Made by a program: the position numbers and the translations under genes
Source: Gemmatimonadetes bacterium 13_2_20CM_2_65_7
GTDB lineage: Bacteria; Gemmatimonadota; Gemmatimonadetes; Gemmatimonadales; GWC2-71-9
Reading direction: 5' to 3'
Length of the DNA: 64,000 nt
Assembly (NCBI GenBank): GCA_001915025.1
Contig: MNDR01000039.1
Span: 1,132-65,131 of the forward strand
In this document: piece after piece, positions 4,054 to 17,292 of the stretch
Layout: each line of letters begins with the position of its first letter
Position numbering within the stretch: the first letter of the stretch is position 1
Notes under the pieces: model-generated
The model's database searches: none
The model's input: only the letters and a program-made list of their open reading frames with translations
Told to the model about the DNA's origin: nothing

Positions 4054-4785
4054 GTGGTCACCTTCGCGATCATTCAATCCGGTTTGTCGAACGCCCTGCA
4101 ACATCAGCCGCTCGTTGCCGTGCCCCTGCTGTTTTTTGCCGGTCTTGTGACGAGCACCAATCCCTGCATTTGGCCGATGATCCCGATCACCATCGGTGCA
4201 ATCACCGGCGTAGGGGGGGGCACGCAGGGCGCGACGCATTCGCGCCGCCGCACGATTGTGCTGACGCTGACGTACGTCGCCGGGCTGGCGCTGTTTTACG
4301 CGATTCTCGGACTGATCGCGGGATTGAGCGGATCGATCTTCGGGACCATCAGCTCGAACCGATGGTCGCGCCTCGTCATCGGCAGTCTGCTGCTCGTGTT
4401 TGCACTTGTGATGTTCGACGTGATTCCGGTCCGAATGCCGGTGCGGTTGGCCGCGTGGGCCGGAAGTCTCGGCGGAGGATCGTATCCGGCGGTTTTTCTG
4501 CTGGGCGCCACGTCAGGAATCGTCGCGGCGCCCTGCGGTGCCCCCGCATTCGCGGTGGTCCTCACCTGGGTGGCGGCGACGCACAGTGGGACGTTGGGAT
4601 TCGTGTACCTGTTTGTATTCTCGTTGGGAATGACGGCGGTCTTGCTGGTCGTCGGGATATTCTCGGGAGTGCTTGCAATTCTGCCGAAGCCGGGTGCATG
4701 GATGGTGTGGATCAAAAAAGCCGCGGGCGTGGTTCTACTGCTCATGGCTGAGTACTACTTCGTCAAAGCGGGGCAAGTATGGTGA
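4054..4785 (+). CDS. ccdA: Cytochrome c biogenesis protein CcdA / DsbD-type transmembrane thiol-disulfide electron transporter
   Basis: 243 aa polytopic membrane protein with Cys inside helices (LVTSTNPCIWPMIP and IVAAPCGAPAF), as in CcdA/DsbD-beta. GTG start. Confidence 0.8.
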   Translation: MVTFAIIQSGLSNALQHQPLVAVPLLFFAGLVTSTNPCIWPMIPITIGAITGVGGGTQGATHSRRRTIVLTLTYVAGLALFYAILGLIAGLSGSIFGTISSNRWSRLVIGSLLLVFALVMFDVIPVRMPVRLAAWAGSLGGGSYPAVFLLGATSGIVAAPCGAPAFAVVLTWVAATHSGTLGFVYLFVFSLGMTAVLLVVGIFSGVLAILPKPGAWMVWIKKAAGVVLLLMAEYYFVKAGQVW

Positions 4786-5288
4786 CACCGTACGTCGTAC
4801 GTCGTGCGTCGTTCCTCGCGCTGTTGCTCCTGACGCCGGCCTGGTTGCGCAGTCAAGAAATAATTGGAATACCCGTCGGTGAGACGCCCCCCCCCGTCAC
4901 GCTGCAGAATCTGAACGGCGACTCCGTCTCGTTGTCCCAATGGATCGGGAAGAAGCCCGTCATTATCGAGTTTTGGGCGACGTGGTGCCCCATTTGCGCC
5001 GAGCTGTTGCCGCGGATGGAGGCGGCGCACAAGAAGTACGGCGACCGCGCCGAGTTTCTCGTGATCGCCGTCGCCGTGAACGAGAGCCAGAACACGGTTC
5101 GGCGTCATCTCGAAAAGCAGCCGATGCCGTTCACGTTCCTCTGGGACGGGAACGGCGCAGCGGTGCGCGCCTTTCAAGCCCCGAACACGTCCTACGTCGC
5201 TGTTCTCGACACCAAAGGGCGCGTCGTGTATACGGGGGTCGGGGCGGATCAGGATATCGAGGCGGCGTTACGGCGGGCGGTTCGCTAG
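4779..5288 (+). CDS. TlpA/ResA-like extracytoplasmic thioredoxin-fold thiol:disulfide oxidoreductase
   Basis: 169 aa with a signal/anchor sequence and the WCPIC active site (EFWATWCPICAELLP). Overlaps ccdA as ATGGTGA. Confidence 0.85.
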   Translation: MVTPYVVRRASFLALLLLTPAWLRSQEIIGIPVGETPPPVTLQNLNGDSVSLSQWIGKKPVIIEFWATWCPICAELLPRMEAAHKKYGDRAEFLVIAVAVNESQNTVRRHLEKQPMPFTFLWDGNGAAVRAFQAPNTSYVAVLDTKGRVVYTGVGADQDIEAALRRAVR

Positions 5289-5290
5289 AC

Positions 5291-5339
5291 GACGGGCCCG
5301 CTGCGCGACAAAAGACCGCAGTCGCTGCGCGGGCCCGTC
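5291..5339. terminator. Long GC-rich hairpin between convergent genes (possible bidirectional terminator)
   Basis: gacgggcccgc (5291-5301) pairs perfectly with gcgggcccgtc (5329-5339), and an inner 5-bp gcgac/gtcgc extension is present. There is no clear U-tract on either side. Confidence 0.35.
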
Positions 5340-5355: not shown

Positions 5356-5937
5356 TCAGTGCGCCGTCGTATCGGCCGGCACCACCTTCGCGATCGCCGC
5401 CGCCAACTCCGTATATGCGGTCGGATCGATCTCCCGGAACGGCATCGCCCGGTAAGCGATCTTGCCGTCGGGTCCTACCACGAAGAGAGTGCGGTTGTCG
5501 AGCTTGTACTGGGCGTTGAACGCGCCGTACGCTTTTCCTACCGCCGAATTCGAATCGCTCGCAAAGAGGAAGGGATACTCGGCGTCCCGCGCCCATGAGG
5601 CGAGGGCGGTGTCCGGGTCTGCGCTGATGGCGATGAGAACGATGTTGCGGCCGTTTTTGAAAACCTGTGCGTACTGATCACGGTACGCATTCATTTGAAT
5701 CGTTCAGCCACGGGTTCGGGCTTTGAAGAAGAACGCGAGGACGACCGTCTTCCCCTTGTAATCGCTGAGGCGCACCGGGCCGCGGAGCATTCCGAATCGG
5801 GTTGCGCCGGGCACGGAGAAGTCAGGAGCTACTGTGCCGACCTCGGGTACCGGCGGCGAGGCTGGAGCGGCCGGCTGTTGCGCCGCGACGCCAGCCGCCA
5901 AAACGGTGACCGCACTAACCAACGCAAGCTGTCGCAT
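5356..5937 (-). CDS. Secreted AhpC/TSA (BCP-like) peroxiredoxin, probable selenoprotein (in-frame TGA 5704..5706 read as Sec)
   Basis: Tracked ORFs 5704..5997 and 5356..5694 share one frame and are separated only by TGA ACG ATT CAA. The joined product has signal peptide MRQLALVSAVTVLAAGVAA, then ...GKTVVLAFFFKARTRG-U-TIQMNAYRDQYAQVFKNGRNIVLIAISADP...FLFASDSNSAVGKAYGAF. That is a peroxiredoxin fold with the TGA at the T-x-x-C peroxidatic Cys position. Start taken at ATG 5937 (AAAGAGGA 8 nt upstream); ATG 5997 (TGATG overlap with the upstream gene) is an alternative. Confidence 0.7.
5668..5689 (-). promoter_or_regulatory. Candidate bacterial SECIS hairpin downstream of the in-frame UGA
   Basis: On the mRNA the sequence reads UGA-N14-UGCGUAC-CGUGAUCA-GUACGCA. 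This is a perfect 7-bp stem with an 8-nt loop containing GU. The loop starts 21 nt after the UGA, within the spacing usually quoted for bSECIS elements. Confidence 0.5.
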
Positions 5938-5996
5938 AGATGATCCTCTTTGGGGCCGCGACAATATATCTATTTCGCGAGCCGCTTCCATCTTCA

Positions 5997-6539
5997 TCAG
6001 TGACTCCCCGCTCCGACGCCGTATCGCGTTCTGAGAATCTCTACGTGATGCCGTTCATGCCCCGGAATCATGTACGCGATCGCCCGCACGCTGACGGGCT
6101 TGCCGCTCGCCGTGCCGCCCCGCCGCCACGCATCGGCATCGAATGTGCGCAACAGGGCGAGCGTCGCCGCCCGGGCGGTGCGCAGCTCGCCGACGAGATC
6201 GGTGAGCGAGCGGGTGTCGAACTTTGCAACCGGGACATACGCGTTCTCATCGAATCCCGGCAGCGGCGTGGTATCGCCGCGCGCGATCCGTAACGCCCGG
6301 TAGGCCATGATGCGCTCGATGTCGGCGAGGTGGCCGACGACTTCCTTGACGCTCCATTTACCGTGCGCGTAGCGATGCATCGCGTCCGCTTCGGAGAGCC
6401 CGTGCAGCAGCGCCGCCGTGTCCTCGATCTGCGATGCGCAAGCGATCACCGGATCCAGCTCGGGAACGCGCTTGATGTAACCGACGAAATGCGACGGCAC
6501 CTCGTCCGGCTCCGGCCGGCCGACCGTCCTCGCGTTCAT
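5997..6539 (-). CDS. DinB/YfiT-like family protein (putative metal-dependent thiol transferase/hydrolase)
   Basis: 180 aa with DinB_2-like features (HRYAHGKWSVKEVVGHLADIERIMAYR ... HERHHVEIL). Confidence 0.65.
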   Translation of the reverse strand: MNARTVGRPEPDEVPSHFVGYIKRVPELDPVIACASQIEDTAALLHGLSEADAMHRYAHGKWSVKEVVGHLADIERIMAYRALRIARGDTTPLPGFDENAYVPVAKFDTRSLTDLVGELRTARAATLALLRTFDADAWRRGGTASGKPVSVRAIAYMIPGHERHHVEILRTRYGVGAGSH

Positions 6540-7033
6540 GACGCCCTTCCGCCGAGCTCATTCAACGCCATCGCTTTCACAGTCTTTCCCTCTCCCGTCA
6601 GAATGCGCCGGTGATAATCCACCTGGCCGAGGTGGTAGGCGAGGTGGGTGGCGAAATGAGCGAGGAACGCGCCGGTGGTGGAGCTGACCCCGCCCACCGG
6701 CTCGGGATACGGCCGAGCGAGGTCGGCCTCGCTGATCTTGCCCATGCCGGTCTGGACCGCGGCGATCGCGTTATCGATCTCGCGCAGCAGCTCGACACGC
6801 GGGACGTCGCGGCTGCCGAACTCGGCGTCGCGATTGCGGACGTATCCGTTCTTGCCGAGCACGTGGCCGACGAAATACTGAAGATTGCCGGCGAGGTGAA
6901 GGGCGAGATTGCCGCCGGGATTCGCGATGCCGGGCAGAACTTCCCAGAGACCCTCATCGCTCGGGTACGACTCGATCTCGCGGCGCAGCGCCTTGAGCTC
7001 GCGGGTGATGACGTTGGTGATCCAGTCTTTCAT
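6536..7033 (-). CDS. DinB superfamily protein
   Basis: Start taken at MKDWITNV (ATG 7033, TGATG overlap with the upstream stop). A four-helix DinB-like protein with His motifs LALHLAGNLQYFVGH ... HLAYHLGQVDYH. Confidence 0.6.
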   Translation of the reverse strand: MKDWITNVITRELKALRREIESYPSDEGLWEVLPGIANPGGNLALHLAGNLQYFVGHVLGKNGYVRNRDAEFGSRDVPRVELLREIDNAIAAVQTGMGKISEADLARPYPEPVGGVSSTTGAFLAHFATHLAYHLGQVDYHRRILTGEGKTVKAMALNELGGRAS

Positions 7034-8313
7034 CAGATCCTCCCTATCCGCATGGCCACCGGCCAGCGGGCCAAGCGCGCCGACTGTGGAGCCCCCCACG
7101 GCCCTGCCAGCTTCGCGACGAGGGTGTCCACAGGATCCTGACGATGGTGTCTCATGAACGCGCGCGTCGCCGACCAGGTACGGATATAGCCCGTCACGTC
7201 GTCCAAGGTCACCTGTTGCTCGATCAGGAAGTTGGGTGCGGCAAATTCCGCAAACGGAAACTCAATGGTTCGGTAACGCTCCTCGGTGATGTGCCGTTCC
7301 GGCGGCCAGAACGGTCCTACGACGTCGCTGTAAAACTCGCGGACGATCGCGTCGATCTCGGGCGCAATCTCGAAGAGCAGGTAGGTCCACACCGCGACGA
7401 CGCCGCGCGGCCGCAACACGCGCCGCGCCTCCGCCCAAAACTTGGGCCGGTCGAACCAATGCAGGGCTTGCGCGGCTGCCACGAGGTCGACCGACGCGTC
7501 CTCCAGGCCGCTCGCCTCGGCCGGCGCCACGCGATACGTGATGCGCGAGTGGCGCAGCGCGTGCTCGAGCTGCGACTCGCTTGCATCCGTTGCGAACACC
7601 TTATGGAAGTGGCGAGCCAAGCCGATCGCCGCCTGTCCCGATCCCGTGCCGCAATCCCACGCGGCCTCCAACGCCGGCGCGGCACGAGTGAGAAAATCAA
7701 ACAGCGCATCTGGATAGCGCGGCCGGAAGGCGGCGTATGCGGCGGAAACTCCCGAGAAATGATCCGCGAAGCTCACAGTGTCCGAAGGAAGTTGTGCAGC
7801 GGGCAGGGTGAGAGGAAGAGCCTTGATGCGATACCGTACCTCGGGTATGGCGGTGTTGGGATACATTCGCTTCCCGCCATCAAGCGTGAAACCGTGTTTC
7901 TCGTAGAACCGCCGCGCGCTCCTGTTCTCTTCGAGTACCCACAGCGTCACTTCCGCAAAACCGCGGCGCCGAAACTCGTCGAGCACGTGATCTACCAGCA
8001 CACGACCGTAGCCGCGACCGCGCAAGTGTGGCAGCACATGCAGTGACGTGATGTGGCCGACGCGTGTGGGATCGTCATCAAGGTCTCGCGACGGAATCAT
8101 CTGACAAAACGCGAGGGCTTTGCCTGCTTCCTCGATCACGAACACCGGCCACTCACGGTCGGCGATGCGCACGGCCCAGAACCGCGTGCGATAGGCAAGG
8201 TCGGTCTTCGCAATGACGTCATCGGGCATAATGCCTCGGTAGGCGACGTTCCACGACTCGACGTGGATGTGCCCGACCGCGGCCGCGTCTGTCGTCAATG
8301 CGCGGCGGATCAT
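7033..8313 (-). CDS. Fusion protein: N-terminal GNAT acetyltransferase + C-terminal class I SAM-dependent methyltransferase
   Basis: The N-terminal ~170 aa are GNAT-like (LHVLPHLRGRGYGRVLVDHVLDEFRRRGF...EENRSARRFYEKHGF). The C-terminal half has methyltransferase motif I AWDCGTGSGQAAIGLARHF. Start at MIRRAL (ATG 8313, ATGA overlap). Confidence 0.75.
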   Translation of the reverse strand: MIRRALTTDAAAVGHIHVESWNVAYRGIMPDDVIAKTDLAYRTRFWAVRIADREWPVFVIEEAGKALAFCQMIPSRDLDDDPTRVGHITSLHVLPHLRGRGYGRVLVDHVLDEFRRRGFAEVTLWVLEENRSARRFYEKHGFTLDGGKRMYPNTAIPEVRYRIKALPLTLPAAQLPSDTVSFADHFSGVSAAYAAFRPRYPDALFDFLTRAAPALEAAWDCGTGSGQAAIGLARHFHKVFATDASESQLEHALRHSRITYRVAPAEASGLEDASVDLVAAAQALHWFDRPKFWAEARRVLRPRGVVAVWTYLLFEIAPEIDAIVREFYSDVVGPFWPPERHITEERYRTIEFPFAEFAAPNFLIEQQVTLDDVTGYIRTWSATRAFMRHHRQDPVDTLVAKLAGPWGAPQSARLARWPVAMRIGRI

Positions 8314-9228: not shown

Positions 9229-11073
9229 CTACTGGAACACTTGCAGTGCCACCTCGACGCGTCCGAACGGCGCGCTTACCTGAACGCCCTGGACCATTTG
9301 CTTGACCCGCGTGAACATCTCACGCGCGATGGCCACGCCCTCCGCGAGCGCCGCTTCCTTCCCTTGCTCCTGCGCCTTCCTCATGCGCTGGAGCACTTCC
9401 TCCGGCACCGACACGCCGGGGACTTCGTTCGCGAGAAACTCGGCGTTGCGCAGGGAGATGAGCGGCCAGACCCCGGCGACGATGGGCAGCTTGAACTGAT
9501 CGATGCGCTTGAGAAATGCCTCGAGCTGGCGCACGTCGAACACCGGCTGCGTCACGGCGAATTCGGCCCCCGCATCCACCTTCCACGCGAACCGGGACAG
9601 CTCGCGATCCTGGTCGCCCGCGCCGGGATTCACGCCGACACCGATCGCCCACTTCGTGGCGCCGCCGAGCGGATTGTTGCCCGGATCGAGGCCCTGATTC
9701 AATCGATAGACGAGGTTCGTCAGGCCGATCGAATCGATGTCGAACACCGCCGTCGCTTCGGGATACGGACCCATCTTCGGCGGATCACCCGTGATGATCA
9801 GAATGTTGCGCAACCCCGCGGCGTGCGCGCCGATGATGTCCGACAGCATGCCGAGCAGGTTGCGGTCGCGGCAGCAGTAGTGAATCACGGTTTCGATGCC
9901 CACCTCGCGCTCGATCAGCAGCGCCGATGGCAGCACCCCCATGCGGCTTTGCGCGCGCGGGCCATCGGGCACGTTCACCGCATCCACACCGGCGGCTTTC
10001 AGCGCGCGACACTGCGCCAGCATCGGCGTCGGATCCACGCCCTTGGGCGGCACGATCTCGACGCTCGTGACCAGCTCACCGCGCGCGAGCTTATTGCCCC
10101 AGCCGGATTTCAAGGCGAGCGGGGTCGCCGTCACTCCCTCAGGCGCCTTCACCTGCGCGCGCGAGACGACGACGCTCGGCTGCCGCGGCACGACGCTCGC
10201 GACGTAGTCGCGGATCTTCTTGATGTGTTCGGGCGTCGAGCCGCAACACCCGCCCACAAAGCGGGCGCCCGCTTCGATCATGCGTCGCGCATAGCTCGCC
10301 ATGTACTCGGGAGACGCGAGATAGATCTTGCGGTCACCCACATCCTTGGGCAGACCCGCGTTGGGCTGCGCGGAAATCGGTTTGTCCGTCGCCTTCACCA
10401 TCTTTTCGACGGCCTCGAGCACGCCCGCCGGCCCGACGGAGCAATTCACGCCAATCACATCCGCCCCCCACGCCGTGAGCTGCTTGGTGAAAGTCTCCGG
10501 ATCGGTGCCGTAGTAGGTCAGGCCGTCGGTGCCGATCGTCATCTGGCAGGCGACAGGCAGATCGGTTGCGGCGCGTACGGCGTTCAGCGCCGCGTGCATT
10601 TCCTGCATGTCGCTGAATGTCTCGAGCACGAAGCCGTCCACGCCGCCGGCGAGCAGGCCCTGCACCTGCCGAGCGAACAGCGCTTGCGCTTCGGCTTGCG
10701 AGGTCGGGCCAAAGGGCTCGATGCGGATGCCGAGGGGGCCGATCGCGCCGACCACGCTCGCGCGGCCCCCCCCCCCGGCCGCGGCGGCGCGCGCCAGCTC
10801 GGCGGCGGTGCGATTGATCTTCTCGGTGTCGTCGGCCAGACCGTAGCTGTTGAGCTTCAGCGGATTCGCGCCGAAGGTATTGGTCTCCAGGATCTCGGCG
10901 CCCGCGCGCACGTACTCCGCGTGTACTTCCTGCACGAGCCGCGGCTGCTTCAGGTTCAGCTCGTCATAACAGACGTTCAGGAAGAAGCCCTTGCCGTACA
11001 GCATCGTGCCCATCGCCCCGTCGAAGACGTGGACGCGACCGTCAGCAATGAGAGATCGGAAGTCAGTAGGCAT
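9229..11073 (-). CDS. Bifunctional homocysteine S-methyltransferase / 5,10-methylenetetrahydrofolate reductase (YitJ-like)
   Basis: The N-terminal Hcy-binding domain has VFDGAMGTMLY ... FVGGCCGSTPEHI (zinc Cys motif). The C-terminal half is MetF-like (VEIVPPKG...HYCCRDRN...ITGDPP). ATG 11073 (MPTDFRSLIADGRVHVFDGAMG) is preferred over the tracked TTG 11115, based on N-terminal length relative to my recollection of YitJ-type proteins. Confidence 0.85.
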   Translation of the reverse strand: MPTDFRSLIADGRVHVFDGAMGTMLYGKGFFLNVCYDELNLKQPRLVQEVHAEYVRAGAEILETNTFGANPLKLNSYGLADDTEKINRTAAELARAAAAGGGGRASVVGAIGPLGIRIEPFGPTSQAEAQALFARQVQGLLAGGVDGFVLETFSDMQEMHAALNAVRAATDLPVACQMTIGTDGLTYYGTDPETFTKQLTAWGADVIGVNCSVGPAGVLEAVEKMVKATDKPISAQPNAGLPKDVGDRKIYLASPEYMASYARRMIEAGARFVGGCCGSTPEHIKKIRDYVASVVPRQPSVVVSRAQVKAPEGVTATPLALKSGWGNKLARGELVTSVEIVPPKGVDPTPMLAQCRALKAAGVDAVNVPDGPRAQSRMGVLPSALLIEREVGIETVIHYCCRDRNLLGMLSDIIGAHAAGLRNILIITGDPPKMGPYPEATAVFDIDSIGLTNLVYRLNQGLDPGNNPLGGATKWAIGVGVNPGAGDQDRELSRFAWKVDAGAEFAVTQPVFDVRQLEAFLKRIDQFKLPIVAGVWPLISLRNAEFLANEVPGVSVPEEVLQRMRKAQEQGKEAALAEGVAIAREMFTRVKQMVQGVQVSAPFGRVEVALQVFQ

Positions 11074-11132
11074 CGGTTGCGTGTCGTCCCAAAAGAAATC
11101 CCCGCCCAAGGCCAACGCCCTGTACGGGGTCT

Positions 11133-11185
11133 GGCTTTTTAGCGGTTGTTTAACGTGGCCGCAATACGCCGCAAATCGCCACGGC
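11133..11185 (-). promoter_or_regulatory. Candidate pseudoknotted leader RNA (riboswitch-like) upstream of the Hcy-methyltransferase/MTHFR gene
   Basis: The minus-strand RNA is CGUGGC-GAUUUGCGGCGUAUUGCG-GCCACG-UUAAACAA-CCGCUAAAAAGCC. A 6-bp hairpin is present, and its loop segment AUUUGCGG is complementary to downstream CCGC(U)AAA, giving H-type pseudoknot potential. The class is not established. Confidence 0.25.
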
Positions 11186-11232
11186 TCAATCCAGAAAATA
11201 ATCGCCTAGATGGCGCGTACTCTTAAATAGCT

Positions 11233-13609: not shown

Positions 13610-16600
13610 TTACGAGCCGTAGGCGGCTGAGACGATGCGCTCCTGCTCTGCCTTGTGGGCCGCGGGGTAGCCTTCGGCGGGACTCGAGCGTTCCGGGCGC
13701 GACACATCGAGGAGCGCGACCGACTGCGGCAACGCCTCGCGAATCTTGGGCAGCACGAACTTGCGCGCGCCCATGTTGCGCGGCTCTTCCTGGACCCAGA
13801 CGACCTCTTTGAGATTCGGATAGCGGCGCGCGTATTCTCCGATCTCCGTGCCGGGGAAGGGATAGAGCAGCTCCAGCCGCCCGATTTTCACATGTGGCGT
13901 CTCAGTGCGGCGTGGCGAGGCGATGATGTCGTAGTAAATCTTGCCGCTGCACAACAGCAAGCGCGTGACTTTCTCGGGCCACGTCCGGTCGCGATCCCAA
14001 AGCACACTCCTGAACTGCCCCAATACGAGATCGTTGAGCTGGGAGGAGGCGGCCGGCAAGCGCAGCAAACTCTTGGGCGTCATCAGCACGAGCGGCCGGA
14101 TTTCCGTGTGCCGCGCCTGTCGCCGCAGCAGATGGAAGTATTGCGCCGGCGTGGTACAGTTCGCGACGCGAATGTTTCCTTCCGCCCCCAGCGCGAGAAA
14201 CCGCTCGACGCGCGCGCTCGAGTGCTCCGGGCCCTGGCCCTCGTAGCCGTGCGGCAGTAGCAGCGACAGCCGCGACGTCTCGCCCCATTTCGCAAGCCCC
14301 GCGATCAGGAACTGATCGATCACCACTTCGGCGCCGTTCGCGAAGTCGCCAAATTGTGCCTCCCACAGTACCAGCGCATCCTGCGCTTCGACGGCATAGC
14401 CATACTCGAAGCCGAGACAGGCGTATTCCGAGAGCGGGCTGTTGTGCAGCTCGAACGAAGCCCGGCCGTCGGGCAGGTTCTGAATCGGCGTATGTCGCGC
14501 GCCGGTGTGTATGTCGTGGAGCACGAGATGCCGCTGACTGAAGGTGCCGCGCTCGGTGTCCTGCCCGGTCAAGCGGATCGGTGTTCCCTCGATCAGCAGC
14601 GAGGCGAACGCCAACGACTCCGCGTGTGCCCACTCGATGCCGTCTTTGGACATGAGCACGTCACGACGCCGCTCGAGCTGCTTCTGCAGCTTGGGATGCA
14701 TCGCGAAGCCCTCCGGCACCGCGAGCAGCTGCTCGTTGAGCCGCTTCAGCGTCTCGGCGTCGACGGCCGTGGTGGGCTCGGGCGTGTTCTGGCGCTGGAT
14801 GCGCTGCGGCTCATCGGCGCGTTGTCCTGACTTCACCGCCTGCTGCACGGCCGCGAGCCTCTGGTAGGCGGCCTCCGCGTCCGCATCCGCTTGAGCGGCA
14901 GCGACGACGCCTTCTTGCGCGAGCTGCGCCGCGTACTTCTGACGGACGGATGGAGTCTGCTTGATCCGTTCGTACATCATCGGCTGCGTGTAGGCCGGCT
15001 CGTCGGCCTCGTTGTGACCGTAGCGGCGATATCCCACCAGATCGATCACGACGTCGCCATGGAAGTTGTCGCGGTACATCATCGCGAGCCGCACAGCCGC
15101 GAGACACGCCTCCGGATCATCGGCGTTCACGTGCACGATCGGCGCATCGAAGCCTTTGGCGAGATCGCTCGAGTAGTCGGTGGAGCGGCCTTCGCGCGGA
15201 TCCGTGGTGAAGCCGATCTGATTGTTGAGGATCAGATGGAACGTGCCGCCGGTCGTATAGCCGGGGAGTCGCGCGAGATTGAAGGTCTCCGCGACGACGC
15301 CCTGGCCCGCGAACGCGGCGTCGCCGTGCAGCAAGACCGGGAGCGCGACGTTCACGTCGAGTTGCACCGCCGCACCGCTCCGATTCGTTTGGTTCGCGCG
15401 GGCACGACCCTCGACGACCGGATTCACCGATTCCAGATGGCTGGGATTGGGCGAAACCATCACGGCGATGTCCTTGCCGCTCGCCGTGCGGTACACCCCC
15501 TCAGCGCCGTGGTGATACTTCACGTCACCGGTACCGGCGTTCCACCCTTCCGATTCAGCCGTCTCCTCGCGGCGGCCGCCCTCGAACTCCGCGAGGATCG
15601 TTTCGTACGGAACGTTCACGACGTGCGCGAGCACGTTGAGTCGTCCACGGTGCGCCATGCCGATGGTCGCCTGGCGCGTGCCGTGGGCCGCGGCGAGCTC
15701 CAGCGTGAAATCGAGCATCGGCACGGTCATGTCGAGGCCTTCGATCGAGAATCGCTTCTGGCCGAGGTATGCCTTGTGCAGGAAGCGCTCGAGCGTGTCG
15801 ACCGCCGTCAGCCGCGCCAGCAGCTGCCTCTTTCCATCCGCGGAGAGCGGCCGCCGATGCTGGCCCGATTCGATCACTTGCCTGAGCCACAGGCGCTCTT
15901 CGTGACTCCCGATGTGTTCGACCTCATAGGCGATCGTGCCGCAGTAGGTCGCCTGGAGATACGGCAGCGCGTCCGCGAGTGTCTTGCCTGGCACATAGAT
16001 GCGGAGCACTTCGGCGGGGATTCGCGCCATGATCTCCGGCGTGAGTCCCAACCGGCCGATGTCGAGGGAAGGATCGCCGGGCGGCTCGCTGCCGAGGGGA
16101 TCGAGATGGGCGGCGAGGTGGCCGAAATTCCTATGCGCCCGGACCAGCGCGTAGGCCGCAGCTACATGTTTAAGATCCTCGACACCCACGGCCTCCGGTT
16201 GGGGAAGGGGGACGGGGGAAGAGGGAAGGGTACTGCGGGGAGCCGCAGGAGTCGGAGGGGCCGCCGTGTACCCTTCCCCCTTCCCGCTTCCCCCTTCCCC
16301 TTTTGCCAGGCTCTCCGTCACCAGGTCGTAGAACCGTTCCTCTCCCTGCAACAGGGAATCCAGGTACCGCAGAAACATTCCCGACTCCGCGCCCTGAATG
16401 ATCCGGTGATCGTACGTGCTCGTGATCGTGATGATCTTCGTGCCCCCCCCGGTGATCTCGCGGATGGTGCCGGTCGCGATGATCGAGCCCTGGCCCTTCA
16501 TGAGACGCGGGACCGACGCCACGGTACCCAGCGTGCCGGGGTTTGTGAGCTGGATCGTGCCGCCGGCGAAATCGTCCGGCAGGAGCCGGTTGATGCGCGC

Positions 16601-17257
16601 CTTCTCGACGAGCGTTTCGTACGCCGCGTGGAACGCCGCGAAGTCCATCGACTCGGCGTGCTTGATCACCGGTACGACGAGCGCCCGGCTGCCGTCCTTC
16701 TTCTCGACGTCGACTGCTAGGCCCAGGCCGATGGCGCCTGGGTCGACGCGATGGGGCTTGCCGTCGATTTCCTGGAACGCGTGCGTCATGACCGGGAACC
16801 GCTTGGCCGCCTGCACGATCGCGTAGCCGATCAGGTGTGTGAACGAGATTTTCCTACCGCTTGCCGCGAGCTGGGCATTGAGCGCCTTGCGACGCGCGTC
16901 AAGGTTCGTGGCCGGGATGTCGCGGAAGGACGTCGCCGTCGGGACCGTCAGCGACTCCGTCATGTTGGCTACTAACCGAGCAGCCGGACCCGTCATGGGC
17001 ACGGCACCAGGAGCAGGGAGCATGGAGCGGGGAGCAGAAGGCGCTGGAGGAGAAGGCGCTGGAGCGAGAGGTGCGGGCGCGGTTACTGCTCCCTGCTCCT
17101 TGCTCCCTGCTCCCTGAATTATCGGCAGCTCCGCCAGCTTGCCGTTATCAAACAACTCCCGCCATTCCTGTCCTACGGAAGCCGGATCGCGGAGGTAGTC
17201 CTCGTACATCGCCTGGACGAAGGCGGCGTTGTGGGTGCCGAAGATGAATTCGCTCAC
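13610..17257 (-). CDS. sucA: Multifunctional 2-oxoglutarate dehydrogenase E1 with fused E2-type succinyltransferase catalytic domain (OdhA/Kgd architecture)
   Basis: The protein has an N-terminal 2-oxoglutarate-DH motif (NAAFVQAMYEDYLRDPASV) and an acyltransferase catalytic domain (TSTYDHRIIQGAESG). A TPP-dependent E1o follows (RLNVLAHV..., LLHGDAAFAGQGVV, LLLPHGYEGQGPEHSSAR). GTG 17257 (VSEFIFG...) is preferred over the tracked TTG 17290. Confidence 0.9.
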   Translation of the reverse strand: MSEFIFGTHNAAFVQAMYEDYLRDPASVGQEWRELFDNGKLAELPIIQGAGSKEQGAVTAPAPLAPAPSPPAPSAPRSMLPAPGAVPMTGPAARLVANMTESLTVPTATSFRDIPATNLDARRKALNAQLAASGRKISFTHLIGYAIVQAAKRFPVMTHAFQEIDGKPHRVDPGAIGLGLAVDVEKKDGSRALVVPVIKHAESMDFAAFHAAYETLVEKARINRLLPDDFAGGTIQLTNPGTLGTVASVPRLMKGQGSIIATGTIREITGGGTKIITITSTYDHRIIQGAESGMFLRYLDSLLQGEERFYDLVTESLAKGEGGSGKGEGYTAAPPTPAAPRSTLPSSPVPLPQPEAVGVEDLKHVAAAYALVRAHRNFGHLAAHLDPLGSEPPGDPSLDIGRLGLTPEIMARIPAEVLRIYVPGKTLADALPYLQATYCGTIAYEVEHIGSHEERLWLRQVIESGQHRRPLSADGKRQLLARLTAVDTLERFLHKAYLGQKRFSIEGLDMTVPMLDFTLELAAAHGTRQATIGMAHRGRLNVLAHVVNVPYETILAEFEGGRREETAESEGWNAGTGDVKYHHGAEGVYRTASGKDIAVMVSPNPSHLESVNPVVEGRARANQTNRSGAAVQLDVNVALPVLLHGDAAFAGQGVVAETFNLARLPGYTTGGTFHLILNNQIGFTTDPREGRSTDYSSDLAKGFDAPIVHVNADDPEACLAAVRLAMMYRDNFHGDVVIDLVGYRRYGHNEADEPAYTQPMMYERIKQTPSVRQKYAAQLAQEGVVAAAQADADAEAAYQRLAAVQQAVKSGQRADEPQRIQRQNTPEPTTAVDAETLKRLNEQLLAVPEGFAMHPKLQKQLERRRDVLMSKDGIEWAHAESLAFASLLIEGTPIRLTGQDTERGTFSQRHLVLHDIHTGARHTPIQNLPDGRASFELHNSPLSEYACLGFEYGYAVEAQDALVLWEAQFGDFANGAEVVIDQFLIAGLAKWGETSRLSLLLPHGYEGQGPEHSSARVERFLALGAEGNIRVANCTTPAQYFHLLRRQARHTEIRPLVLMTPKSLLRLPAASSQLNDLVLGQFRSVLWDRDRTWPEKVTRLLLCSGKIYYDIIASPRRTETPHVKIGRLELLYPFPGTEIGEYARRYPNLKEVVWVQEEPRNMGARKFVLPKIREALPQSVALLDVSRPERSSPAEGYPAAHKAEQERIVSAAYGS
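16201..16300. repeat. 100-bp imperfect palindrome inside kgd (E2-E1 linker), arms of CTTCCCC-like tandem units
   Basis: The left arm 16201-16233 (ggggaagggggacgggggaagagggaagggtac) matches the reverse complement of the right arm 16268-16300 at 30/33. The loop is 34 nt and has its own tgcgg/ccgca mini-stem. TTTT follows on the + strand. It encodes ...KGEGGSGKGEGYTAAPPTPAAPRSTLPSSPVPLPQ... in frame. Confidence 0.85.
17008..17116. repeat. 109-bp imperfect palindrome inside kgd (N-terminal linker), arms of CTGCTCC tandem units
   Basis: The left arm 17008-17037 matches the reverse complement of the right arm 17086-17116 at 28/31 with one indel. The 48-nt loop contains a 15-bp direct repeat agaaggcgctggag x2. 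It encodes ...QGAGSKEQGAVTAPAPLAPAPSPPAPSAPRSMLPAPGAVP... in frame. Confidence 0.85.
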
Positions 17258-17292
17258 GGGTTGGAATCTATAGGGTATCTTATTTCGCAAGT

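What the first reader, a model, noticed from the sequence alone, without database searches (positions are those of the whole stretch)
5356..5937. Peroxiredoxin split by an in-frame TGA at the catalytic Cys position: probable selenocysteine enzyme
ORFs 5704..5997 and 5356..5694 are in the same frame and only four codons apart (TGA ACG ATT CAA ATG). Read through, the junction is VVLAFFFKARTRG-U-TIQMNAYRDQY. This aligns position for position with the AhpC/TSA-BCP active-site block (VVLxFYPKxxTPGC-TxExxxFRDxY), so the TGA replaces the peroxidatic Cys. Fourteen nt after the TGA the mRNA forms a perfect 7-bp stem UGCGUAC/GUACGCA with an 8-nt loop CGUGAUCA containing GU, which is bSECIS-like geometry. 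Both halves keep coding-type GC3, and neither half alone is a complete Prx fold. Prx-like selenoproteins are a known bacterial family, but this one would be annotated as two fragments or a pseudogene.
Basis: partly seen in the sequence, partly recalled or inferred. Interest (0 to 1): 0.75.

Follow-up and report, generated by a model that had tools for sequence, protein, structure and literature searches.

The report
Unannotated selenocysteine peroxiredoxin of soil Gemmatimonadales
Two adjacent "hypothetical protein" fragments are really one secreted antioxidant enzyme (a peroxiredoxin) whose catalytic residue is very probably selenocysteine, encoded by a stop codon plus an RNA hairpin; the arrangement is conserved in about 150 related soil-bacterial sequences but annotation pipelines miss it.

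Summary
Window 5356..5937 (-) is one 193-codon AhpC/TSA gene. Its codon 78 is TGA and aligns with the peroxidatic Cys of solved peroxiredoxins. TGA sits at this position in 83 of 84 copies from 80 Gemmatimonadales species genomes and in 70 of 76 metagenome copies; the other 6 have TGC. Both halves are under purifying selection (dN/dS 0.18 and 0.27, dS about 1), with no other stops. The hairpin GCGUAC-CGUGAUCA-GUACGC, 14 nt after the UGA, is invariant even at synonymous sites. Its seventh pair covaries through all four Watson-Crick types. It meets every published bacterial SECIS criterion and is absent from the Cys-encoding relatives. TGA is a normal stop in this genome. Sec forms have no Cys at all and carry a signal peptide. 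They replace the universal Pro of PxxxTxxC with Phe or Tyr, and a TlpA-like thioredoxin gene and a CcdA gene lie next to them. NCBI annotates the locus as two hypothetical proteins. The Sec machinery could not be checked in this genome. A published table reports selA and selD in 86% of hadal-sediment Gemmatimonadota MAGs. Verdict: a new, order-wide member of the known Sec-peroxiredoxin (TxxU) kind.

The parts
5356..5937 (-). Complete selenoprotein gene: 193 codons plus stop. ATG at 5937..5935, Sec-UGA as codon 78, terminal TGA at 5358..5356. AhpC/TSA (BCP/PrxQ-AhpE-like) peroxiredoxin.
   Evidence: Full-length relatives P0001-P0003 start at the same Met. The tblastn match of L003 covers residues 1-191.
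5944..5950 (-). Shine-Dalgarno-like AAGAGGA, 6 nt upstream of the ATG at 5937.
   Evidence: Read directly from the sequence.
5881..5937 (-). Predicted Sec-type signal peptide MRQLALVSAVTVLAAGVAA|QQ (codons 1-19).
   Evidence: Inferred from the sequence pattern: a basic n-region, a hydrophobic core and V-A-A. The Pfam domain starts only at residue 33. Homologues carry equivalent N-termini. No signal-peptide predictor was available.
5725..5727 (-). Phe71 codon, at the position of the universal Pro of the PxxxTxxC motif.
   Evidence: Sec forms have F106/Y40/I1 and never P. Cys forms have P81/Y3.
5713..5715 (-). Thr75 codon, the catalytic Thr of TxxU.
   Evidence: Thr in 146 of 146 Sec forms. Invariant in alignment A1.
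5704..5706 (-). In-frame TGA, inferred to encode selenocysteine 78, at the peroxidatic-Cys column.
5690..5703 (-). 14-nt A/U-rich spacer ACGAUUCAAAUGAA between the UGA and the hairpin. It uses atypical codons; Gln is CAA.
   Evidence: Gln is CAA in 128 of 146 Sec forms but CAG in all 7 Cys-form DNAs.
5668..5689 (-). bSECIS-type hairpin. 5' arm 5683..5689, 8-nt loop CGUGAUCA 5675..5682, 3' arm 5668..5674.
   Evidence: 100% paired in 73 distinct sequences. The closing pair is CG37/UA31/GC4/AU1 and the six inner pairs and loop are nearly invariant. It is the only structure RNAalifold finds in 146 sequences. It occurs once in the window.
5491..5493 (-). Arg149 codon, the conserved active-site Arg of peroxiredoxins (DNRTLFVV).
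   Evidence: Invariant in A1. It aligns with the Arg of 2ywn/2cx3. The motif is present in 140 of 146 Sec forms.
5316..5332 (-). Terminator-like stem-loop followed by UCUUUUG, 24 nt after the stop, in the gap between the convergent genes.
4779..5288 (+). Convergent neighbour: an exported ResA/TlpA-like thioredoxin (WCPIC motif). Proposed reductant of the Sec-peroxiredoxin.
   Evidence: Pfam Redoxin/AhpC-TSA/Thioredoxin. NCBIfam ResA/TlpA, below cut-off. Present directly after the Prx gene in 78 of 94 loci with enough flank, and also next to a Cys form.
4054..4785 (+). CcdA/DsbD-type membrane electron transporter, overlapping the start of the TlpA-like gene.
   Evidence: Pfam DsbD_TM, E 7.9e-41. 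Syntenic in 77 of 94 loci.

Best explanation
Window 5356..5937 (-) encodes one exported peroxiredoxin with a single selenocysteine and no cysteine.

Inferred decoding step: during translation, the UGA at codon 78 is read as selenocysteine. A SelB-type elongation factor carrying Sec-tRNA(Sec) is recruited by the invariant hairpin GCGUAC-CGUGAUCA-GUACGC, which starts 14 nt downstream.

Inferred localisation: the full-length product is about 20 kDa (about 18 kDa mature). It is exported by its signal peptide.

Inferred chemistry and recycling: the selenolate, positioned by Thr75 and Arg149, reduces peroxides to a selenenic acid. The protein has no resolving Cys, so the selenenic acid would be recycled by the neighbouring exported TlpA-like thioredoxin. 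That thioredoxin would be kept reduced by the adjacent CcdA membrane transporter, using cytoplasmic thioredoxin.

Shown here: gene unity, the TGA at the catalytic column, purifying selection on both halves, RNA-level selection on a hairpin that fits the bSECIS model and is tied to TGA, and the conserved synteny.

Not shown here: that the inserted residue is Sec, export, peroxidase activity, and the electron relay.
For: (1) With Cys modelled at the TGA, the protein matches AhpC-TSA across the junction. The TGA aligns with the peroxidatic Cys of solved Prx structures.

(2) All 80 best-matching GTDB species genomes carry TGA there. These are Gemmatimonadales/Gemmatimonadota at 59-92% amino-acid identity, and they give 83 of 84 copies with TGA. 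In metagenome loci fetched with a Cys-type query, 70 of 76 have TGA and 6 have TGC.

(3) There are 146 distinct DNA copies with no other stop in 104 aligned codons. dN/dS is 0.18 upstream and 0.27 downstream, with dS about 1.

(4) Codon entropy is about 0 at codons +6 to +11 (GCG TAC CGT GAT CAG TAC; CGT and GAT are non-preferred in this 65% GC genome). Other Ala and Arg codons show 1.1-1.7 bits.

(5) The 7-bp stem is paired in 100% of 73 distinct sequences, and its closing pair takes all four Watson-Crick types. RNAalifold finds only this helix.

(6) All bSECIS model criteria quoted in PMC13188914 are met: an 8-nt loop, a 7-bp stem, G at loop position 2 followed by U, 21 nt from the UGA to the loop, and MFE of -8.6 kcal/mol or lower.

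(7) The 7 Cys-encoding DNAs use other codons and form no hairpin. One of them (L163) has Tyr at the Pro position, like Sec forms.

(8) TGA is the commonest ordinary stop in the window (23 of 51 ORFs) and also ends this gene.

(9) TlpA-like and CcdA genes follow the Prx gene in 78 and 77 of 94 loci. Other neighbours are kept in only about 30. The Caulobacter ScsB-TlpA-PprX envelope peroxidase pathway is a precedent (PMC3322552).

(10) selA and selD are each reported in 86% of Gemmatimonadota MAGs in an independent data set (PMC8938466 source data).
Against: No tRNA-Sec, selA, selB or selD was found in the window or in 1.37 Mb of related loci. The rest of this genome could not be searched.

The phylum-level selA/selD figures come from hadal-sediment MAGs and from KO annotation, not from these soil genomes.

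No second selenoprotein gene was found in the held DNA. That DNA is mostly the neighbourhood of this one gene.

The 8-nt loop is one nucleotide longer than the commonest loop pattern quoted for bSECIS.

Loss of the conserved active-site Pro could be taken as a sign of a non-canonical activity.

There is no protein-level evidence.
Confidence: 0.88

Rival explanations
1. SelB-independent read-through. The hairpin stimulates near-cognate suppression of UGA, so a standard amino acid (Trp, Cys or Arg) is inserted and no selenium is involved.
For: No Sec machinery was seen in the held DNA. The residue actually inserted cannot be read from DNA.
Against: The column is Cys in the relatives, and any residue other than Cys or Sec would destroy a Prx active site. 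If Cys were wanted, TGC is one mutation away, and some lineages do use it. The loop and six stem pairs are invariant in sequence, not only in structure, across dS of about 1. That points to a sequence-specific binder such as SelB. The hairpin fits the bSECIS model. selA and selD are common in the phylum.
Confidence: 0.05
2. Pseudogene: a peroxiredoxin inactivated by a nonsense mutation at its catalytic codon.
For: Public annotation treats the locus as two short hypothetical proteins. One relative, L002, has TTA (Leu) at the site.
Against: The TGA is kept in 153 of 160 copies from many species. There are no other stops or frameshifts, and dN/dS is 0.18 and 0.27 on the two sides with dS about 1. 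The TTA copy comes from an 864-bp contig with coverage 1.6 and still has an intact hairpin.
Confidence: 0.01
3. Two separate products. Translation ends at the TGA, giving a 77-aa exported peptide, and restarts at the ATG four codons later, giving a 112-aa protein.
For: An ATG lies 9 nt after the TGA and is conserved (Met in 145 of 146). Gene callers predict exactly this.
Against: That Met belongs to the C-T-[IV]-Q-M motif, which is equally conserved in uninterrupted Cys forms. Neither piece is a complete thioredoxin fold. The 112-aa piece would have no signal peptide and no catalytic residue. This model does not explain why the hairpin is tied to TGA and absent with TGC.
Confidence: 0.03
4. 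Genome-wide reassignment of TGA (genetic code 4 or 25), or a sequencing or assembly error.
For: JGI translated two relatives with TGA = Trp (P0003 and P0041).
Against: 23 of 51 window ORFs end at TGA, including this gene. The P0003 'W' is a plain TGA in the DNA, and that ORF then runs through its real stop. The same TGA recurs in about 150 independent assemblies.
Confidence: 0.01

Closest known systems
Bacterial Sec-containing peroxiredoxin family (Prx, PF00578/COG1225 Bcp, 'TxxU'; prototype PrxU of Eubacterium acidaminophilum)
   Same: Same domain. Sec sits at the peroxidatic position within T-x-x-U. The conserved Arg is present. UGA is followed by an in-ORF hairpin. Cys-containing homologues exist (family as listed in PMC13188914, PMC9312934 and PMC5029168).
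   Different: It is not the PrxU equivalog (NF040737: 58 bits against a cut-off of 270). The motif is [F/Y]xxxTxxU rather than the 'highly conserved PxxxTxxU' described for the family. It has a signal peptide and no Cys at all. It occurs in Gemmatimonadales, for which I found no published selenoprotein in the searchable library.
Caulobacter crescentus cell-envelope peroxide pathway ScsB -> TlpA -> PprX (Cho et al. 2012, PMC3322552)
   Same: An exported peroxiredoxin is encoded with, or depends on, an exported TlpA-type thioredoxin and a DsbD-family membrane electron transporter.
   Different: PprX uses Cys. The transporter here is a minimal CcdA-type protein (243 aa, DsbD_TM only), not ScsB. 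The relay here is inferred from synteny only.
Cys-containing orthologues in Gemmatimonadota (for example P0004, P0015, P0021; 55-69% identical)
   Same: Same length, signal peptide, single redox residue, Thr and Arg. At least some have the same TlpA/CcdA neighbours.
   Different: They have TGC instead of TGA, Pro at Cys-7 (81 of 84), ordinary GC-rich codons after the Cys codon, and no hairpin.
E. coli fdhF/fdnG bSECIS and the bSECISearch consensus
   Same: A hairpin directly downstream of the UGA inside the ORF, G-U at the start of the apical loop, and spacing and stability within the model's ranges.
   Different: The sequence is unrelated. No bulged U is evident. The loop is 8 nt. From my own recollection of the fdhF element (not tested here), the G-U lies 3 nt further from the UGA than in fdhF.

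Membership tests
Peroxiredoxin (AhpC/TSA, PF00578) | Thioredoxin-fold AhpC/TSA domain above the Pfam gathering score | tested here: met
   98.4 bits against a cut-off of 26, residues 33-162 spanning the TGA. 54 PDB peroxiredoxin sequences matched, the best being 2ywn at 4.4e-15.
Peroxiredoxin (AhpC/TSA, PF00578) | Peroxidatic Cys (or Sec) in the T-x-x-C motif at the start of helix 2 | tested here: met
   The TGA aligns with the Cp of 2ywn, 2cx3 and 1xvw. Thr is at -3 in 146 of 146 Sec forms.
Peroxiredoxin (AhpC/TSA, PF00578) | Conserved Pro of PxxxTxxC | tested here: not met
   Phe71 in the window. F/Y/I in 147 of 147 Sec forms, and Pro in 81 of 84 Cys forms. The protein still matches the family model strongly, so this marks a variant and does not exclude membership.
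Peroxiredoxin (AhpC/TSA, PF00578) | Conserved active-site Arg | tested here: met
   Arg149 is invariant in A1 and aligns with the Arg of the PDB hits.
Peroxiredoxin (AhpC/TSA, PF00578) | Thiol- or selenol-dependent peroxidase activity | not testable with these tools
   Needs an enzyme assay.
PrxU (NCBIfam NF040737 equivalog) | Score at or above the curated cut-off | tested here: not met
   58 bits against a cut-off of 270. It is a different lineage of Sec-Prx.
Bacterial SECIS element (bSECISearch consensus, as quoted in PMC13188914) | Apical loop of 3-9 nt and upper stem of 4-16 bp | tested here: met
   8-nt loop and 7-bp stem.
Bacterial SECIS element (bSECISearch consensus, as quoted in PMC13188914) | G in the first two loop positions, usually followed by G or U | tested here: met
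   The loop is C-G-U-G-A-U-C-A. G26 is invariant, and U27 is kept in more than 90% of copies.
Bacterial SECIS element (bSECISearch consensus, as quoted in PMC13188914) | [quoted passage not shown] | tested here: met
   14-nt spacer plus 7-nt arm gives 21 nt.
Bacterial SECIS element (bSECISearch consensus, as quoted in PMC13188914) | MFE of -7.5 kcal/mol or lower | tested here: met
   -8.6 kcal/mol for the window hairpin and -9.4 for the C-G variant.
Bacterial SECIS element (bSECISearch consensus, as quoted in PMC13188914) | Binding by SelB and SelB-dependent decoding | not testable with these tools
   Needs genetics or biochemistry.
Selenoprotein (Sec-decoding trait) | Sec/Cys pair: Cys in homologues at the TGA column, with conserved flanks | tested here: met
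Selenoprotein (Sec-decoding trait) | selA, selB, selC (tRNA-Sec) and selD present in the same genome | not testable with these tools
   Absent from the 64-kb window and from 1.37 Mb of loci. Indirect support: selA and selD each occur in 0.86 of Gemmatimonadota MAGs in PMC8938466.
Selenoprotein (Sec-decoding trait) | Selenium found in the protein | not testable with these tools
   Needs 75Se labelling or mass spectrometry.

The most novel reading that the evidence does not exclude
This is a distinct active-site variant of peroxiredoxin rather than just another Sec-Prx. It is an exported, cysteine-free enzyme with one Sec. Acquiring Sec is obligatorily coupled to replacing the universally conserved Pro of PxxxTxxC with Phe or Tyr (147 of 147 Sec forms, against Pro in 81 of 84 Cys forms). 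This implies that the selenolate needs, or tolerates, a different pocket. The gene is fixed across a whole order of abundant, largely aerobic soil bacteria, which would make Gemmatimonadales an unrecognised major group of Sec users and the enzyme an envelope selenoperoxidase.
Probability: 0.3. Interest if true: 0.6.

Novelty: new member of a known kind. Interest (0 to 1): 0.45.

Why it matters
First, it corrects a systematic annotation error. In the window's own genome (OLB51110.1 and OLB51111.1), and in dozens of protein clusters from NCBI, JGI and ENA, this gene is stored as a 77-aa and a 112-aa fragment, or is mistranslated with Trp.

Second, it indicates that Gemmatimonadales use selenocysteine. 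These bacteria are widespread in soil. In the literature I could search, no selenoprotein has been linked to this phylum.

Third, it offers a clean natural experiment on Sec versus Cys catalysis. Close Sec and Cys orthologues exist, a strictly coupled Pro-to-Phe/Tyr change lies next to the active site, and one lineage has Cys plus Tyr.

Fourth, the nearly invariant 20-nt hairpin is a ready-made probe for finding further selenoprotein genes, and the SelB specificity, in this phylum.

Tried and rejected
(1) tRNA-Sec. ARAGORN found none in the window or in any of the loci.

(2) Sec machinery. The only hit (L045) is an EF-G-like GTPase.

(3) Rfam. There is no SECIS-type hit, at gathering or at permissive thresholds. 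I saw no sign that Rfam has a bacterial SECIS model, so this says little.

(4) Other selenoproteins. A Sec/Cys-pair screen of all in-frame TGAs with coding-type GC3 in 1.37 Mb of held DNA found nothing beyond this family. The top 'hits' were the antisense frame of this gene (its loop TGATCA is palindromic) and stop/start junctions between genes.

(5) Pfam map of all 51 window ORFs. Nothing is selenium-related.

(6) Literature. Searches for Gemmatimonad*/Gemmatimonas together with selenocysteine, selenoprotein, selD or tRNASec found no paper describing a selenoprotein in the phylum. The supplements of Peng et al. 2016 do not mention the phylum.

(7) NJ tree of 59 Sec and 51 Cys representatives. 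It did not separate the two types cleanly: the best split holds all the Sec forms plus 23 Cys forms. I therefore make no claim about a single origin of the Sec form.

(8) 'L' and 'W' at the Sec column in P0001-P0003. W is a code-4 translation of TGA. L in P0002 is a real TTA in a contig of coverage 1.6. P0001 comes from a protein-level assembly with no DNA available.

(9) Structure prediction was not run. The tool returns no coordinates, so it could not address the Pro-to-Phe question, and fold membership was already clear from sequence.

(10) Protein-database search for Sec machinery. I ran no further search on E. coli SelA/B/D queries, because only the best 120 hits are listed and those would be enterobacterial.
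Full report
**1. What is in the sequence**

On the minus strand, ORF 5704..5997 and ORF 5356..5694 share a frame. They are separated only by TGA (5706..5704) followed by ACG ATT CAA, then ATG. I modelled Cys at the TGA and started at the ATG at 5937, which has AAGAGGA 6 nt upstream. The resulting 193-residue product matches Pfam AhpC-TSA over residues 33-162, right across the junction (E 3.8e-28). It also matches 54 peroxiredoxin sequences in the PDB. The printed alignments to 2ywn, 2cx3 and 1xvw put the TGA exactly on the peroxidatic Cys. Thr75 (T-x-x-U) and Arg149 are in place. The hairpin UGCGUAC-CGUGAUCA-GUACGCA lies at 5668..5689, 14 nt after the UGA.

The start is the ATG at 5937, not the one at 5997. 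The canonical Pro of PxxxTxxC is Phe71 here.

**2. Is it more than chance, or a pseudogene?**

A protein search returned about 30 clusters of 112-113-residue C-terminal fragments starting MNAYRDQY, at 84-96% identity. It also returned full-length relatives at 55-70% identity that carry Cys.

A scan of one genome per GTDB species returned 80 loci. Nearly all are Gemmatimonadales MAGs, at 59-92% identity. TGA sits at the catalytic column in 83 of 84 copies, counting the window and one genome that has two copies. The single exception, TTA in L002, comes from an 864-bp contig with coverage 1.6. A 'Trp' in JGI's translation of P0003 is a plain TGA read with code 4.

A metagenome scan seeded with Cys-type proteins still returned 70 TGA copies against 6 TGC copies.

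Across 146 distinct DNA copies, no other stop occurs in 104 aligned codons. Nei-Gojobori dN/dS is 0.18 for the 45 codons before the TGA and 0.27 for codons +14 to +58. Synonymous divergence is about 1 substitution per site. A decaying pseudogene, an assembly error and a chance ORF pair are all excluded.

TGA is the commonest ordinary stop in the window (23 of 51 ORFs) and ends this gene too. That rules out codon reassignment.

**3. The RNA element**

Ala and Arg codons elsewhere in the gene show 1.1-1.7 bits of codon entropy. Codons +6 to +11 are essentially fixed: GCG 146/146, TAC 146/146, CGT 143/146, GAT 141/146, CAG 145/146, TAC 146/146. CGT and GAT are non-preferred codons in a 65% GC genome.

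On 73 distinct 54-nt sequences, the 7-bp helix is paired in 100% of cells. Its closing pair is formed by two synonymous third positions, and it occurs as C-G (37), U-A (31), G-C (4) and A-U (1). In a few more divergent metagenome copies this seventh pair is mismatched, while the 6-bp core remains. RNAalifold on 146 sequences predicts this helix and nothing else.

The element meets each criterion of the bacterial SECIS model as quoted in PMC13188914:

| Criterion | Model | Here |
|---|---|---|
| Apical loop | 3-9 nt | 8 nt |
| Upper stem | 4-16 bp | 7 bp |
| UGA to loop | 16-37 nt | 21 nt |
| MFE | -7.5 kcal/mol or lower | -8.6 kcal/mol |

The decisive control is the Cys forms. They encode the same or nearly the same peptide ([A/T/S]YRD[Q/R/E]Y) with ordinary codons (CGC or CGG, GAC). 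They pair only 3-6 of the 7 positions and show no hairpin in their MFE folds. One lineage, P0027/L163, has TGC together with the Sec-type Tyr at the Pro position, and it has lost the hairpin entirely. The spacer also differs: Gln+3 is CAA in 128 of 146 Sec forms but CAG in all seven Cys-form DNAs. So the hairpin goes with the TGA, not with the protein sequence. The stem and loop are fixed in sequence, not merely in structure, which argues for a sequence-specific binder, that is, SelB.

**4. What the protein is and how it probably works**

All 146 complete Sec forms contain no cysteine between position -45 and the stop. The enzyme is therefore a '1-Sec' peroxiredoxin with no resolving residue, and it needs an external reductant.

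The N-terminus, MRQLALVSAVTVLAAGVAA|QQ, looks like a Sec-type signal peptide. Homologues have equivalent N-termini. This is inferred; no predictor was available.

Immediately downstream and convergent lie two genes: a ResA/TlpA-like exported thioredoxin (WCPIC; 4779..5288) and a CcdA/DsbD_TM membrane electron transporter (4054..4785). Among 94 related loci with enough flank, 78 keep the TlpA-like gene and 77 keep the CcdA gene in this arrangement. The other neighbours of the window (DinB, GNAT-methyltransferase, Fpg, M20) are kept in only 13-35. At least one Cys form has the same partners.

The best-supported mechanism runs as follows:
- UGA78 is decoded as Sec through SelB and the hairpin.
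- The protein is exported.
- The selenolate reduces peroxide to a selenenic acid.
- The TlpA-like thioredoxin resolves the selenenic acid through a Se-S intermediate.
- CcdA re-reduces TlpA with electrons from cytoplasmic thioredoxin.

This parallels the experimentally established ScsB-TlpA-PprX envelope pathway of Caulobacter (PMC3322552). The decoding step rests on strong comparative evidence. Export, peroxidase activity and the relay are inferences.

**5. The one untested refuter**

The window and 1.37 Mb of related loci contain no tRNA-Sec and no SelA, SelB or SelD. Nothing else in the window is selenium-related.

Indirect support comes from the source data of Fig. 3a in PMC8938466. For Gemmatimonadota MAGs from Challenger Deep sediments, including the orders Gemmatimonadales and SG8-23, it lists selA (K01042) and selD (K01008) each at 0.8636, which corresponds to 19 of 22 MAGs. 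This is a different habitat and relies on KO annotation, so it shows only that the trait is common in the phylum.

**6. Comparison with what is known**

Sec-containing peroxiredoxins (PF00578/COG1225, motif TxxU) are an established bacterial selenoprotein family. They were found in 78 of about 5,200 genomes in 2016 (PMC5029168; PMC9312934; PMC13188914). By domain and Sec motif, this gene belongs to that kind.

It differs in several respects:
- It is not the PrxU equivalog (58 bits against a cut-off of 270).
- It departs from the 'highly conserved PxxxTxxU' motif described for the family. The Pro position is F, Y or I in 147 of 147 Sec forms, and Pro in 81 of 84 Cys forms.
- It is exported and cysteine-free.
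- It occurs in a phylum for which I found no published selenoprotein in the searchable library.

A quick NJ tree did not resolve whether the Sec forms arose once.

**7. Annotation status**

The window's two pieces are in NCBI as OLB51111.1 (77 aa, AUI08_03750) and OLB51110.1 (112 aa, AUI08_03745). Both are 'hypothetical protein' records from Gemmatimonadetes bacterium 13_2_20CM_2_65_7. More recent records name the C-terminal fragment 'redoxin domain-containing protein'.

**8. Verdict**

It is a new, order-wide and systematically mis-annotated member of a known selenoprotein kind, with an unusual and possibly informative active-site substitution. Interest is moderate (0.45).

Noticed in passing
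window 11119..11192 (-): Rfam SAM_alpha (SAM-II) riboswitch hit above gathering (45.4 bits against 36, full-length). It lies 4 nt upstream of a fused homocysteine S-methyltransferase/MTHFR gene (9229..11115, -). The family is described for Alphaproteobacteria, and here it is in a Gemmatimonadetes MAG.
   Followed up: no
L056 10235 and 14949 (CAVROI010000002.1): One Gemmatimonadales MAG carries two copies of the Sec-peroxiredoxin gene 4.7 kb apart. Both have the TGA and the intact hairpin.
   Followed up: partly
L163/L164 3001..3576 (protein P0027): A lineage with TGC (Cys) but Tyr at the Pro position, as in Sec forms, and no hairpin. It is a possible Sec-to-Cys revertant or an intermediate, and it keeps the TlpA/DsbD_TM neighbours.
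   Followed up: partly
L001 (P0003) and P0041: JGI gene calls translate the Sec-TGA as Trp (code 4). In L001 the ORF then runs through the true TGA stop into downstream sequence. This is an annotation artefact that hides the selenoprotein.
   Followed up: yes
L002 332..334: TTA (Leu) replaces the TGA in one 864-bp ENA contig with coverage 1.6, and the hairpin is intact. It is probably a read error or a very recent mutation.
   Followed up: partly
Sec-form genes in all loci: The terminal stop codons of the 146 Sec-form genes are TAG 63, TAA 54 and TGA 29. Window-wide usage is TGA 23, TAG 18, TAA 10 of 51. This may reflect avoidance of a second UGA, but the copies are not phylogenetically independent.
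   Followed up: no
window 5675..5682 (-): The SECIS loop contains the palindrome TGATCA, which includes GATC. The antisense frame therefore also shows a 'conserved in-frame TGA', and this produced false candidates in the Sec/Cys screen.
   Followed up: yes
window 13610..17290 (-): A 1226-aa protein with a 2-oxoacid dehydrogenase acyltransferase (E2) domain fused N-terminally to 2-oxoglutarate dehydrogenase E1 domains. From memory, this architecture is known from actinobacterial OdhA/Kgd.
   Followed up: no
protein P0085 (170 aa, source 'src'): A database protein joins the C-terminal Prx fragment (96% identical to the window's) to the antisense translation of the TlpA-like gene. This suggests a deletion variant or a chimeric assembly of this locus.
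   Followed up: no
window 5997..7099 (-): Two tandem DinB_2-family genes (related to mycothiol/bacillithiol transferases) lie directly upstream of the Sec-Prx gene on the same strand. They are conserved only among the closer relatives, about 30 of 94 loci.
   Followed up: partly
L013 and L031: Two contigs carrying the Sec form are binned as 'Acidobacteria bacterium gp6 AA46' and 'Bacillati bacterium ANGP1', yet they share the Gemmatimonadales gene order. Either they are mis-binned or the locus was transferred.
   Followed up: no
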